A stretch of DNA of 64,000 bases, taken from positions 65,410,001-65,474,000 of the forward strand of contig NC_043002.1 of NCBI RefSeq assembly GCF_006345805.1. The letters are read 5' to 3'. This document shows, piece by piece, positions 4,993 to 61,745 of this stretch (position 1 is the stretch's first letter; each line of letters begins with the position of its first letter). Both the position numbers and the translations under genes were made by a program. The stretch is from Octopus sinensis. Taxonomy: Eukaryota. The notes beneath the pieces were generated by a model that did no database searches, was not told the origin of the DNA, and saw only the letters and a list, made by a program, of their open reading frames with translations.

Positions 4993-5426
4993 GAAAGAAA
5001 GTTGAGAATTATGGATATATGATCAATTTATATGTATGATATTATGAGATTGAAAGTTATTTTATAAAAACACAATATAAATATATTATAAATCATAAAG
5101 CTCAAAAAGGTACTTCGCCAGATTCCTTTCAAGAAATATGTTAACCTTTGATGTAGCTTTAAATCTTATAAAGCCCTGACGAAATTTTGCCCTACATAGT
5201 TAAAAATGGTGACGGATTCTTAATATTTGACGCCACCCAAATGCTTAGAATTACAAATTACATAGGGGTATAAATCAAAACATATATGTAGGATTTTGGT
5301 ATCTGTCATTTCTTTTTTCTTTAGCTTTATAATTTGTAATTTATTTGTATTTTATAAAACAAACCTTCAGCCTCATAATATCATACAAATAAATTCATTA
5401 TAATCCATAATTCTCCATTTTATTTC
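4993..5426. repeat. Diverged ~115-bp inverted repeat pair with ~200-bp spacer (non-autonomous element)
   Basis: 4993-5108 gagaattatggatatatgatcaatttatatgtatgatattatgag... is the reverse complement of 5317-5426 ...ctcataatatcatacaaataaattcattataatccataattctc. Confidence 0.7.
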
Positions 5427-5772
5427 TTATATTATTAACAATATGTATTACAGTAATAATCATTAACATATCGCCGAGACATTCTCCTTATATGATAATG
5501 ATTAACCAGTGAAAAGTTTGAATTATTTAATCCCTAATGAGGACCTGACATCCTCTAATTGACTATATATGTATATAATAGTGAAAGACTCAGTATTAAT
5601 ACTAACAGGTAATATTTATCTCCATTTTAAAGTGAATGTTGTGTTAGAACATAGAATACTGTATTTGATACCATGAGAGAACCTCCCATATGGGCTTTCG
5701 GTGTATATTAGCACTCTTGTTTAAATCGCTAACGACGAGATAAATTACTCGCTATCGCTACCACCTAGAGAA

Positions 5773-5819
5773 CCAGGACACGTGATTTCGGCCATGGCCT
5801 TCTCTGGCCTTGTCAATGG
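5773..5819 (-). ncRNA. Degenerate minimal hammerhead-ribozyme-like motif
   Basis: Minus strand: cca UUGACAA ggcca[gagaaggcca]uggcc GAAA u-cacgug UC cugg. Stem II is a perfect 5 bp and stem III is palindromic; the core has two transitions relative to CUGACGA. Confidence 0.45.
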
Positions 5820-5983
5820 TGGGACACTCGATTGCTGGGCATAGCAGCGATATCTCCGCTAAAGAGATACACAGAATTTCAATGTCTGTCAGGCACAAGT
5901 GTCACAAATATAAAAATTAATAACTGGCGCTAGAAACAATATTAATATAAAAAGTTCTTTCTCTCCCTAATGATTCTTTACTC

Positions 5984-6128
5984 TCTGCGTTCAAACTCCG
6001 CCGAAATCGACGTTGCTTTTCACCCTTTTGGGGCTTGATAAATTAAGTGTCAGTTGAGTACCATATGAATGTAATCGACTTGACCCTTTCCCGAAAATTG
6101 CTGGCCTTTTGCCAAAATTTGAAACCAA
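5984..6128 (+). mobile_element. Decayed family A SINE fragment
   Basis: B-box-like gcgttcaaactcc followed by the core tcgac..gcttttcacccttttggggc..gataaattaagt. Confidence 0.65.
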
Positions 6129-6539
6129 TATCTTAAGCAGACGACGGAGGGAAAGTATACTCTGCACCAGAAACCGGCTAAATTTGTAGGTGGTTTAACA
6201 GTTTACTATTTTATTAATTCGCACTAATTCGCAAATACGTCTTGCACCTTTGATGTATGACAGTGATTACAAAATATGTTAATTATAATATCTCACCAGT
6301 GTACTACAAGTGAAACGATGTAAACATATAATTGTAGTGACTTTAAATATTGCCCTTCAATCCATATAATCTTTCTATTTTATGTATATGTGAATGAACA
6401 CGACATTTCTCACGCAGCACAGTTCTTAAGAACCTGGGAATTCACAAAACCAAACTAAACAGGATTATTTTATGACATTGAATCTACATCCCATTAAACG
6501 TGCTGCGTGATGCATTCCAGAAATATGGGATGTGCTAGG

Positions 6540-58556: not shown

Positions 58557-58685
58557 TAATAATAATAATATTATTAACAAGAAGAAGAAGAAGAAGAGAA
58601 GAAGAAGAAGAGGGAGAAGAAGAAGAAGAAGAAGAAGAAGAAGAAGAAGAAGAAGAAGAACAACAACAACAACAACAACAACAAT
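58557..58685. repeat. Compound (AAT)n-(GAA)n-(CAA)n microsatellite
   Basis: Direct reading. Confidence 0.95.
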
Positions 58686-59480
58686 AGTTTCAAATTATGC
58701 CACAAGGGCGTCAATATTGGGGGAGGGGATGAGTCAATTACATCGATCCTAGCTTTCAACTGGTATCATTTCTATCGACCCCGAAAGTCGACCTCAGCGA
58801 AATTTGAACTCATAATGTAGCGACGGGTGAAATATAGCTAAGCATTTCGTCCAGCGTGCTAACGATTCTACTATAGACACAAGGCCTGAAATTTTGGGGA
58901 ATGGACTAGTCGATTACATCGAGTTCAGTTTTCAATAGTACGTGATTTATCGACCCAGAAAGGATGAAAGGCAATGTCGACTTAGGTGGAATTTGAACGC
59001 AGAACGGAGCAACGGGTGAAACACTGCTAAACATTTCGCCCAAAATGCTAACAATTCTGCTAGCTCGCCGCTTTAATAATAATCCTTTCTACTATAGGCA
59101 CGAGGCCTGAAATTCTGATGATGGGACTAGTCGATTAGATCGACTCCAGTACTCAACTAGTATTTATTTTGTCAACCCCAAATAGATGAAAGCAAAGTCG
59201 ACTTCGGCGAAATTTAAACCCAGAAGGTAGCGGCATGCTAACGATTCTTATTTCTTTATTGCCCACAAGGGGCTATACCCAGAGAGGACAAACAAGGACA
59301 GACTTACGGATTAAGTCGATTATATCGACCCTAGTGCGTAACTGGTACTTATTTAATCGACCCCGAAAGGATGAAAGGCAAAGTCGACCTCGGCGGAATT
59401 TGAACTCAGAAAGTAGCGGCAGACGAAATACCGCTAAGCATTTCGCCCGTCGTGCTAACGATTCTGCCATCTCACTCGCG
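58686..59480 (-). mobile_element. Tandem cluster of four family A SINE units
   Basis: Repeated core and head motifs, all on the minus strand. Confidence 0.85.
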
Positions 59481-59869
59481 TTATAATCAAAATAAATAAT
59501 GAGAGTAGAGAATTAATATTTATAACGATGACGGTGATGAACATGATGATGTTGGTGGGCATTTGACGATGACAACGATGATGACTATCTGGATTTCAGA
59601 TATTTACAAAAGCTCAAACAGTTTTGAAGATGTTTGCAGACGATTATATCGACTCCGTTGGGATTTAGACTGAGAAACGAAGAAGAACCGAATCTAAAAT
59701 AACATCGCAATGCATTTTGTCTGACACTCCGCCGAATCTTCCTAAATCCTGTGAGAATAGATGAATAGATGAACAGAAAAGATATCAGCAGCTTATTATC
59801 TCCGATATCTTAATATATTATAATACTCCAACAAGCTTTAATACAAACACCATGTCAGGTATATGTACA

Positions 59870-61000
59870 CAGACACATGCATACACACACATACTTGCAC
59901 ATACAAACACACTCACGTACATACATATATATATATATATATATATATATATATATAATATATATATATATATATACATACATCATATATATGTATTTAT
60001 GTTTGAATGTTCGTGTGAATGTATGTAGATACACATACACACACACACGTACACACACGTATACATCCATATATTGCCTACATATACACCTGCATATATC
60101 TATATAAGTATATCTATTCATATATATATATATATATATATTTATATATATATATATATATTATATATAATATATATATATATATATATATATATATATA
60201 TATGAATATATATATATATATATGAATATATATATATATATACTTACGTCCGTATACAAATGCATAAAAACATTTACATATATATATATATATATATATA
60301 TATATATATGTATGTGAGCATATGTGTGTATGTGTGTGTGTACTGTAGTAAGATTATTCTAACGAATCAATTCATCAAGCGGACATGTAGAGCTTAGCAA
60401 GAAACTCCAGTGATTATTGGAAAATCAATTGGACCACCATTGTTGAACGGTAGGAAACGTATTGTGAAGAAAATTAAGATTTTCCTGATTTGCGTGTGTT
60501 CAGAAGAATTCGTGAGTGACTGACGACACATTGATACATATACAAATCTATACGTGCATATACACGTATGTTTACAGCTATATGTAACTGTGTGTTTGTG
60601 TGTGTATGTATTTGTGTGTGTGTGTGTGTGTGTGTGTGTGCATGTGAGCGTACATATAGTTATCTGGCTATAATTGTGATTACTTACATATAAATCACAG
60701 TTACAGACATTTATATAAAACACATGTAAAATCACACACATATATATATATAAACTCGTGCGCGCACGCACACACACACACAAATGCACACACATACTCA
60801 CGCACACGTCCACAAGCATACACACACATATTTATATTTCTATATAAATGTATAAATACATATAGGTAAACATATATATGTATACACACACACACACACA
60901 CACACATATATATATATATATAATATATATATATATACACACACAAACAGACACACGCCCACTCATATATTTATAGGTAAATATATATACATATATAAAG
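59870..61000. repeat. (TA)n/(CA)n/(TG)n microsatellite block
   Basis: Direct reading. Confidence 0.9.
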
Positions 61001-61482
61001 AATCACCTATACGCAGATAAGTTCGACAATGACTCTCGTTGCAAACGTTGTCGAACGATAATTGGTTTTATATAAATGTATATCTTTTGCGAACAGACTT
61101 GTGTGTGCTTGTCATTGCTGGCATGCCTTTGCGTCGCTTTATATATCTTTATGTATGTTTGATTATGTTCCACCCCATATATAGTGTCTGTAGTGTTTGC
61201 ATATACTTATGCACGTATGCACATATTTATGCACGTATATATGCAGGGTATTTACCCAGTCATAGACAGGTGATGTTAATAATTTTTTTGTGACTTCGAA
61301 TGTCTTATATGTATCTTCCGTAGTTTAATACACACACGCACATAGATGCTAACACACATATACATATAGCGTGTGTGTGTGTGTGTACACAAACATACAC
61401 ATTTACGCACACACTTGTTTTCAATGAGGCTTGACCCTAGAATTCATAGGTTCAAAGTTTACACAATGTACGACAAATATTC

Positions 61483-61745
61483 TTTTTTAGTAAGGATCGT
61501 TTGCCAACATAACATGGCAGTCCTGGTTTAGGACTAATGTTGCTGTAATTTAGCCCCAGGAGACTGATGAAGATAACATAACCCAGAAATCGCGATACAC
61601 AGATATTGTTTTGAGCTGAGTGGTGGGTGCTAGATTCCCTTGTTCGAAAATATAAGGACACAGCTCGTGTCGTATGGCCAGCTGCAGAGGCTGGGGCTAA
61701 ACCAGGACTGCCATGTTACGTTGACAAACAATCTTTACTACAAAG
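61483..61745 (+). mobile_element. Inverted-repeat-bounded element with hammerhead-like core (61564-61597)
   Basis: ~48-bp arms 61483-61531 / 61697-61745 (taacatggcagtcctggtttag is a perfect match); CUGAUGA ... GAAA ucgcga UA. Confidence 0.6.

What the first reader, a model, noticed from the sequence alone, without database searches (positions are those of the whole stretch)
4993..61745. Dispersed system of unrelated small repeat-bounded elements, each with a minimal hammerhead-like core (Penelope pLTR / retrozyme-like)
Seen: seven loci with no other obvious mutual similarity (5773, 22172, 22728, 49497, 56248, 56960/57220, 61564) show the type-I hammerhead order CUGAnGA - stem II - GAAA - short, often palindromic stem III - NUH. 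Most sit in direct-repeat or inverted-repeat units beside (TA)n/(TG)n tracts. Known: Penelope-like elements carry minimal hammerheads in their pseudo-LTRs and often leave inverted pLTR arrangements; non-autonomous retrozymes exist in metazoans. Inference: this genome hosts a diverse, probably poorly catalogued population of non-coding ribozyme-bearing retroelements that favour TA microsatellites. No PLE RT or GIY-YIG ORF is visible in the window, so mobilisation would be in trans. Most copies here carry core mutations.
Basis: partly seen in the sequence, partly recalled or inferred. Interest (0 to 1): 0.75.

Follow-up and report, generated by a model that had tools for sequence, protein, structure and literature searches.

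The report
Penelope ends and hammerhead retrozymes
The seven spots are copies of seven unrelated scattered repeat families that each carry a hammerhead ribozyme motif: one is the cut-off end of a protein-coding Penelope-type jumping gene and the others are small protein-free elements likely copied by such enzymes, which is a known kind of system, although about half of that jumping gene's insertions are cut off at the edge of its ribozyme for a reason not yet known.

Summary
Real, and a known kind. The seven loci belong to seven unrelated dispersed repeat families. The window copies alone barely beat shuffles. The family majorities restore complete type-I hammerheads: 6 of 7 pass a descriptor, 0 of 400 shuffles each; the seventh shows in its copies.
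- Only four families have CUGAnGA. Two use the known U3-A8 core and one keeps A6U.
- Two families do not end in (TA)n; one of them makes target duplications.
- Locus 22172 is not an independent non-coding element. It is the pLTR end of a young Hydra-clade Penelope-like element (RT plus C-terminal GIY-YIG-type endonuclease, 3-4 kb microsatellite-rich 3' UTR).
- A decayed Hydra-type endonuclease remnant with a further hammerhead lies in the window (57,544-58,059).
Five families have 350-560 nt tandem or terminally redundant units, like metazoan retrozymes; 56248 is SINE-like. Unexplained: up to 565 insertions of the Hydra element, about half on contig C1, stop on both arms at the 5' foot of helix I, with varied junctions on three subfamily backgrounds. 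Self-cleavage and expression were not tested. This scan has reported such elements before, in this genome and in others.

The parts
5576..5954 (-). Family 5773: old retrozyme-like unit (about 365 nt, terminally redundant). Hammerhead at 5770-5822 with U3-A8 core UUGACAA; this copy has a 6-nt duplication in helix II and has lost U16.1.
22173..22360 (.). Family 22172: two head-to-head 3' ends of a young Hydra-clade Penelope-like element in (TA)n. Short arm on the minus strand (hammerhead 22181-22231, C3U change), long arm on the plus strand (hammerhead 22226-22277, intact core, U.U at 10.1/11.1). Junction at the foot of helix I.
22444..23101 (-). Family 22728: young (98-99% identical) 558-nt retrozyme-like unit, 1.2 units here, 3' end in (TA)n. 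Hammerhead at 22728-22780; family core CUGAUGA, this copy A6U; palindromic helix III.
49311..49802 (+). Family 49497: old 409-nt unit plus an 83-nt terminal repeat, ending near (TA)n. Hammerhead at 49502-49548 with canonical core, extra base after A9, G10.1-C11.1 and palindromic helix III.
56161..56372 (-). Family 56248: about 200-nt SINE-like element with a fixed 3' end in (TA)n and no inverted arm. Minimal hammerhead at 56249-56284 with family-wide A6U (CUGUnGA); this copy has also lost U16.1.
56815..57445 (.). Family 56960/57220: one two-armed insertion of an old unit of about 355 nt. U3-A8 hammerheads at 56965-57011 (minus) and 57226-57272 (plus), both with G5 mutated.
57446..58080 (-). 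Broken endonuclease piece at 57805-58059, hammerhead-like motif with intact core boxes at 57544-57603, short TA run at the 3' end.
   Evidence: family not searched genome-wide
61489..61800 (+). Family 61564: sense arm starting at the hammerhead core (about 61565-61603) with an inverted 3' piece in front of it, flanked by a 13-bp target duplication (61474-61486 and 61794-61806). Not a TIR element and not in (TA)n.
4993..5426 (.). Separate decayed inverted repeat (arms 4993-5108 and 5317-5426, 79% identical) next to a TA tract. Possibly another two-armed insertion; no hammerhead verified.

Best explanation
The seven loci are copies, most of them damaged, of seven unrelated hammerhead-bearing repeat families that were likely pasted in by Penelope-like element (PLE) reverse transcriptase/endonuclease proteins; one (22172) is the truncated end of a protein-coding Hydra-clade PLE, five are likely non-LTR retrozymes and one is SINE-like. 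SHOWN: the families; the hammerhead fold in each family; tandem or terminally redundant units; head-to-head inverted arms; fixed 3' ends; the Hydra parent with its tandem pLTR-ORF-pLTR layout; thousands of PLE protein-coding candidates in the genome. INFERRED from published PLE biochemistry: the protein nicks both strands of an AT-rich target and primes two cDNAs at two fixed internal sites of an uncleaved RNA, one on each strand. The cDNAs stop at variable points and are joined head to head, giving one long-ended and one short-ended arm. Tandem arrays of the small units would come from multimeric or circular templates. INFERRED: at least two enzymes act, a (TA)n-targeting type and one that makes 8-15 bp target duplications (61564). 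For the Hydra stop hotspot I favour a short template RNA whose 5' end lies at the foot of helix I, made by an internal start or by 5'-3' trimming up to a protein-bound ribozyme (about 55%). The alternatives are capture at the AGCT microhomology (30%) and copying of ready-made hairpin masters (15%). Whether any of these hammerheads cleaves is untested.
For: Descriptor passes on 6 of 7 families and on a PLE pLTR of the same genome, 0/400 shuffles each. The published marks of PLE hammerheads appear: extra base after A9, G10.1-C11.1, palindromic helix III, U3-A8 (PMC4209133). Hydra parent: RT, DKT, RWR, CxCX5C linker, C-terminal YIG endonuclease with CxxC/CxH (against section 11 of PMC8557442). 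The same hammerhead lies downstream of the ORF in 6 of 8 loci fetched for it and about 190 nt upstream of the ATG in 3 of 20 loci. 43 of 48 two-armed short insertions have one long and one short 3' end, matching the two-start-site 'tail' of PMC11167929. Both arms contain the uncut cleavage site, as that paper's in vitro result predicts. 22728 forms 558-nt arrays that switch strand and end at two TATA sites. Inverted arms occur in 15/28 (49497), 7/24 (57220) and 5/25 (5773) insertions. Core letters change less than flanks in two old families (20/309 against 390/3637; 16/267 against 451/3001).
Against: No protein partner was identified for six of the seven families: no DNA similarity to the Neptune-like pLTR, and no PLE ORF directly upstream in sense within 1.5 kb flanks. 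Within families there is almost no two-sided covariation; most changes break pairs, as in neutral decay, and the core is not better kept than the flanks in 57220 (28/300 against 350/3395) or 56248 (8/279 against 86/3435). 56248 shows no inverted arm (0/25) and a core change at A6 that would be expected to lower activity. Free-energy folding did not give the full hammerhead for the isolated parent arm of 22172, and the two-armed window copy folds as one long hairpin that hides both motifs. Pfam gave no RT or GIY-YIG hit for the Hydra-type protein pieces, and no tree was built. Inverted-arm counts for 61564 and the first 22172 set are biased by queries that held the junction.
Confidence: 0.87

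Rival explanations
1. All seven are independent non-coding retrozymes mobilised in trans.
For: 22728, 49497, 57220 and 5773 have short tandem or redundant units; the 22728 dimer has no sense ATG ORF over 18 codons.
Against: 22172 continues upstream into a microsatellite-rich UTR and a Hydra-type ORF, and recurs as the 5' pLTR of that ORF.
Confidence: 0.05
2. All seven are only truncated ends of autonomous PLEs, with no separately replicating small RNAs.
For: Shown for 22172. PMC4209133 reads most single minimal hammerheads as truncated PLEs. Old parents could be rare and missed in 25-30 loci per family.
Against: In 22728 the unit repeats head to tail in at least six full copies within 3.3-kb loci with no ORF. 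In 49497, 57220 and 5773 the sequence upstream of the unit is the unit's own 3' end.
Confidence: 0.05
3. The motifs are chance look-alikes in ordinary SINEs or MITEs; the inverted arms are TIRs.
For: Window-level counts with relaxed descriptors are near the shuffle mean; no Rfam hammerhead hit among the 150 rows listed; little covariation within families.
Against: 0/400 shuffles for each of six family sequences. Junction and arm length vary between copies, unlike TIRs. Mutated window copies revert to the core in the family majority.
Confidence: 0.03

Closest known systems
Hydra clade of C-terminal EN+ Penelope-like elements, including Hydra-1_Obim (Craig et al. 2021, PMC8557442; passages, section 11 and supplement hits read)
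   Same: Parent of 22172: DKT, CxCX5C linker, CxxC and CxH around the endonuclease end, no CCHH seen, (TA)n insertion, hammerhead in the pLTR, inverted 5'-truncated arm. By eye its RT follows the Hydra alignment rows of the supplement.
   Different: RWR instead of RWK. Unit about 5.3-6.2 kb because of a 3.0-3.9 kb microsatellite-rich 3' UTR (published Hydra elements are generally under 3 kb; Hydra-1_Obim is 2507 bp). Its hammerhead differs from the one listed for Hydra-1_Obim, so it is another family. It has a strong truncation hotspot at helix I.
Metazoan non-LTR retrozymes (Cervera and De la Pena 2020, PMC7229834, passages; Li et al. 2026, bioRxiv 10.64898/2026.07.22.740005, part 1 of 5 and passages)
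   Same: Short, low-GC, ORF-less units with one type-I hammerhead each, in tandem or partial tandem (22728, 49497, 57220, 5773, probably 61564), in a genome that also holds PLEs.
   Different: The 558-nt unit is longer than the 170-400 nt cited. Arrays here switch strand and end at fixed sites like PLE insertions. Circular RNA and self-cleavage were not shown here.
Minimal hammerheads of metazoan PLEs (Cervera and De la Pena 2014, PMC4209133; parts 1-2 of 4 read)
   Same: Many sequence-diverse families per genome, opposite-strand pairs 100-700 bp apart, U3-A8 core, extra base after A9, palindromic helix III.
   Different: Two young families have U.U and one has A.purine at 10.1/11.1 instead of G-C. 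One abundant family keeps A6U; in the passages of PMC3088659 that I read only the C6 variant is named.
Poseidon element of Anolis in vitro (Frangieh et al. 2024, PMC11167929; parts 1-2 of 4 read)
   Same: Two internal priming sites defining a tail, AT-rich target, both strands cut and extended, uncleaved RNA as main template.
   Different: The tail here is about 65-75 nt (22172) or about 90 nt (22728) rather than 30-40. I saw no 5' stop hotspot described in the parts read.

Membership tests
Type-I hammerhead ribozyme | Core boxes (C/U)UGAN(G/A)A and GAAA, U16.1-H17, in type-I order | tested here: met
   Met in 6 of 7 families (four C3-G8, two U3-A8)
Type-I hammerhead ribozyme | Conserved A6 (family 56248) | tested here: not met
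   U at position 6 in 31 of 31 matches among held loci (not deduplicated) while position 7 varies. Filed as a variant motif of unknown activity.
Type-I hammerhead ribozyme | Helices I, II and III in register with the core | tested here: met
   0/400 shuffles for six family sequences. The 61564 majority failed the script; its copies show a 6-bp helix I and a 3-bp helix II behind a mismatch.
Type-I hammerhead ribozyme | Compensatory covariation in stems | tested here: inconclusive
   At most 3 two-sided changes per pair within families and many broken pairs; across families the stems differ wholly in sequence.
Type-I hammerhead ribozyme | Self-cleavage at H17 | not testable with these tools
   Needs in vitro assay; only contigs of guessed-RNA runs were available.
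Hydra-clade PLE (parent of 22172) | Single ORF, RT with C-terminal GIY-YIG-type endonuclease, no CCHH | tested here: met
   Motifs read in translations; weak blastp to a Neptune-like RT, E 1e-6; no Pfam support.
Hydra-clade PLE (parent of 22172) | DKT, CxCX5C linker, CxxC and CxH motifs, RWK | tested here: met
   DKT, CxCX5C, CxxC and CxH present; RWR at the RWK place, one conservative change.
Hydra-clade PLE (parent of 22172) | pLTR from tandem layout, with hammerhead; (TA)n insertion | tested here: met
   5' pLTR with hammerhead before the ATG in 3 of 20 loci fetched; TA at the 3' end in 22/23.
Hydra-clade PLE (parent of 22172) | Placement in the RT phylogeny | not tested
   Reference proteins were seen only in a paper supplement and compared by eye.
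Non-LTR retrozyme (22728, 49497, 57220, 5773, 61564) | Short ORF-less unit with one type-I hammerhead, tandem or redundant | tested here: met
   22728 arrays; redundancy in 13/28, 19/24 and 16/25 insertions (references themselves redundant, so counts run high). For 61564 only two loci show the permuted join. ORF absence measured only for 22728.
Non-LTR retrozyme (22728, 49497, 57220, 5773, 61564) | Expressed unit-length circular RNA | not testable with these tools
   No raw RNA reads offered.
Non-LTR retrozyme (56248) | Tandem or redundant unit | tested here: not met
   1 of 25 tandem, 0 of 25 inverted; described as SINE-like instead.
MITE / TIR DNA transposon (61564, 22172) | Fixed terminal inverted repeats with a constant interior | tested here: not met
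   Arm lengths and junctions vary between copies and arms reach kilobases.

The most novel reading that the evidence does not exclude
The PLE hammerhead marks the 5' end of a short, uncleaved template RNA, for example by blocking 5'-3' decay when bound by the PLE protein or by sitting right behind an internal start. Its job in the cycle would then be to delimit and protect the template rather than to cut it. This would explain why about half the insertions of the Hydra family stop on both arms at the foot of helix I, why cores with A6U or U.U at 10.1/11.1 can spread to hundreds or thousands of places, and how free retrozymes could bud off from pLTRs.
Probability: 0.2. Interest if true: 0.7.

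Novelty: new member of a known kind. Interest (0 to 1): 0.36.

Why it matters
As a catalogue item it is modest: it adds one long-UTR Hydra-clade PLE family and six small hammerhead families from one animal genome, and shows that a single 64-kb window holds at least eight lineages. The part with leverage is the truncation hotspot. The role of hammerheads in PLEs is an open question in the papers read, and a young family with up to 565 insertions ending at one position next to the ribozyme gives a direct test by 5'-end mapping and in vitro priming. The A6U family offers a natural test of whether cleavage is needed for spread.

Tried and rejected
Rfam scan: only microsatellite-driven miRNA noise in the 150 rows listed of 226. 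Window-only descriptors: near chance when relaxed. The Neptune-like PLE of this genome (U3-A8 hammerhead) was tested as parent and rejected: none of the seven elements matches its pLTR, and its protein finds no hit in the window. 61564 as a MITE: rejected, since the junction varies. 22172 as one master hairpin copied whole: disfavoured, because the three commonest junction types each occur with three loop-II variants; several masters are not excluded. Ribozyme cleavage as cause of the hotspot: rejected, because both arms span the uncut site. A 3' splice site at the hotspot (pyrimidine tract and AG in most parent variants; PMC4209133 maps an intron end to helix I in Drosophila Penelope): no shared upstream exon was seen in the junctions and no joint in contigs; left open. 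Expression: no RNA holder was listed. Contigs of guessed-RNA runs cover the elements, and a few have loose ends at the hotspot position, but they cannot show strand, ends or level and are no evidence either way. A Pfam accession recalled from memory was not in the library. Candidate extra motifs at 38404, 39483 and 12672 do not exceed shuffles. Literature: five searches listed no paper on cephalopod hammerhead families or on a helix-I truncation hotspot; the main text of PMC13282606 has no 'hammerhead', 'ribozyme' or 'retrozyme'. Subscription papers, Repbase/Dfam and the bioRxiv supplements could not be seen and may hold these families.
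Full report
SETTING. The window lies in a 2.72-Gb animal genome rich in (TA)n, (TG)n and (AAT)n tracts. The scan's own notes call it an octopus, which fits my recall of the repeats; I did not test the species. 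The window holds LINE pieces but no intact PLE ORF.

2. THE SEVEN FAMILIES. 5773: old (70-82% identity to the window copy), about 365-nt redundant unit, core UUGACAA. 56960/57220: one two-armed insertion of an old unit of about 355 nt, core UUGAUAA. 49497: old, 409-nt unit, canonical core with an extra base after A9 and a helix I that extends past an internal loop. 22728: young, 558-nt unit in arrays that switch strand, with 3' ends at two TATA sites about 90 nt apart; 29 of 34 spanning copies keep the core (overlapping loci, so some copies count more than once) and the window copy has a point change. Its circular fold is -147.0 kcal/mol against -117.5 +/- 6.1 for 25 mononucleotide shuffles (a weak control). 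56248: about 200 nt, fixed ends, no inversion, U at position 6 in 31 of 31 matches while position 7 varies. 61564: sense arm beginning at or inside the hammerhead with an inverted 3' piece in front; non-simple flank duplications of 8-15 bp in 11 of 25 loci against 3.5% for mismatched flank pairs.

3. TARGETS. (TA)4 within about 25 nt of the 3' end: 22/23 for 22172, 21/25 for 56248, 5/5 for 22728 (11 further arrays ran off the locus edge and were not counted), 12/28 for 49497, 11/24 for 57220, 1/25 for 5773, 0/25 for 61564; background 0.04-0.11. The TA preference holds for five families, not seven, which suggests at least two mobilising enzymes (inference).

4. LINK TO AUTONOMOUS ELEMENTS. A broken PLE piece in a flank led to a Neptune-like family: 7038 first-look candidates, ORFs above 800 aa, a U3-A8 hammerhead in each pLTR, and one copy starting 11.7 kb past the window's end. 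It is not the parent of any of the seven. The parent of 22172 was found by walking upstream from longer copies. About 3.0-3.9 kb of microsatellite-rich UTR (six loci; about 0.7 kb from the open frame's end in one diverged copy) lead to an RT with a C-terminal endonuclease. It has DKT, a CxCX5C linker, CxxC and CxH motifs and RWR, against the Hydra definition in PMC8557442 section 11, whose supplement lists a different octopus member, Hydra-1_Obim. In 3 of 20 loci fetched the same hammerhead and tail precede the ATG as a 5' pLTR. The window's long arm is 124/127 identical to one of them. A search with the endonuclease piece listed 150 matches at 87% identity or more. The same protein detects a broken endonuclease at window 57,805-58,059, followed by a hammerhead-like motif at 57,544-57,603.

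5. THE HOTSPOT. A pattern for two cores head to head within 3-14 nt matched 565 places, and the reversed control none. Of the first 50 in genome order, 48 belong to the family: 43 have one long and one short 3' end, 3 score long/long and 2 short/short. Junctions centre on the AGCT of the helix I 5' strand but vary: 17, 6 and 5 of the 43 carry the three commonest forms and 15 carry others. Each common form occurs with all three loop-II variants, so the junction was likely made many times. On contig C1, 29 of 60 insertions seen by an exact 20-mer have this short junction; nine others are two-armed with heads 149 nt to 7 kb apart. An RT coming from the 3' side opens helix I before it reaches this spot, so ribozyme structure alone should not stop it there (reasoning). 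Both arms span the uncut cleavage site. A template with its 5' end there fits best; microhomology capture and several hairpin masters remain possible. 61564 shows similar starts, but my query was biased towards them.

6. MECHANISM. PMC11167929 shows a PLE protein cutting and extending both strands of AT-rich DNA, priming at two internal sites, using mostly uncleaved RNA, and its hammerhead cleaving only with protein. The long/short arm pairs here fit that; the joining step is inferred. For the six families without a found parent, PLE mobilisation rests on insertion shape and on analogy to retrozymes (PMC7229834 passages; bioRxiv 10.64898/2026.07.22.740005). It is weakest for 56248.

7. AGAINST. 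Little covariation within families, and no extra core conservation in two of four older families with enough copies. No partner for six families. Energy folding does not give the full hammerhead for the isolated 22172 arm. No usable RNA data. No tree. Clade names for the Neptune-like element rest on its linker motif and on recall.

8. NOVELTY. Every class here is published, and this scan has many earlier reports on retrozymes and two-armed PLE insertions in this genome, plus a Hydra palindrome with its axis in helix I in another genome. A sequence look-up for the 22172 element returned nothing. What I did not find in print (searches; PMC13282606 passages): the long-UTR Hydra family, the counted hotspot, and the family-wide A6U core. 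Verdict: new members of known kinds, interest 0.36.

Noticed in passing
G000:C6:65485697-65489705 (L222), 11.7 kb past the window's end: Full-length Neptune-like PLE of about 4 kb with a U3-A8 hammerhead in both pLTRs, an upstream 490-aa ORF without Pfam match in its relatives, and a 3' end in (TA)n; the frames are broken in this copy.
   Followed up: partly
window 57446-58080: Decayed Hydra-type 3' end with its own hammerhead-like motif; upstream lies an AAC/AGC-rich low-complexity stretch. Family not searched.
   Followed up: partly
window 4993-5426: Decayed inverted repeat beside a TA tract with a faint likeness, by eye, to the Neptune-like pLTR tail; possibly another two-armed insertion.
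   Followed up: no
window 39432-39489 (minus) and 38404 (plus): Further hammerhead-like strings from the relaxed scan; not above shuffles and not checked at family level.
   Followed up: no
window 55668-56110: Stretch of about 440 nt between TA tracts with a lone CUGAUGA box and no downstream GAAA; no relative among the loci held.
   Followed up: partly
window 1795-62016, e.g. 17228-18049 and 50977-51427: A very common repeat with a 184-nt subunit, at least 12 copies in the window, often in partial tandem; probably a SINE (recalled, not tested).
   Followed up: no
window 3-710, 11424-12592, 23873-26003, 28888-29235, 33332-33799: LINE fragments (RVT_1 and zf-RVT hits) and a possible Tc1/mariner piece (motif recalled, no Pfam hit).
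   Followed up: partly
L251:2852-3225: One arm of the Hydra element lacks exactly the hammerhead between the two helix I strands, as if the RT slipped across the stem.
   Followed up: no
L339: Diverged copy of the Hydra family with a much shorter 3' UTR, suggesting that the microsatellite-rich UTR grew recently.
   Followed up: no
L218, L220: Two more head-to-head hammerhead pairs of other families, and a 77%-identical relative of the 22728 unit, in the flanks of PLE loci.
   Followed up: no
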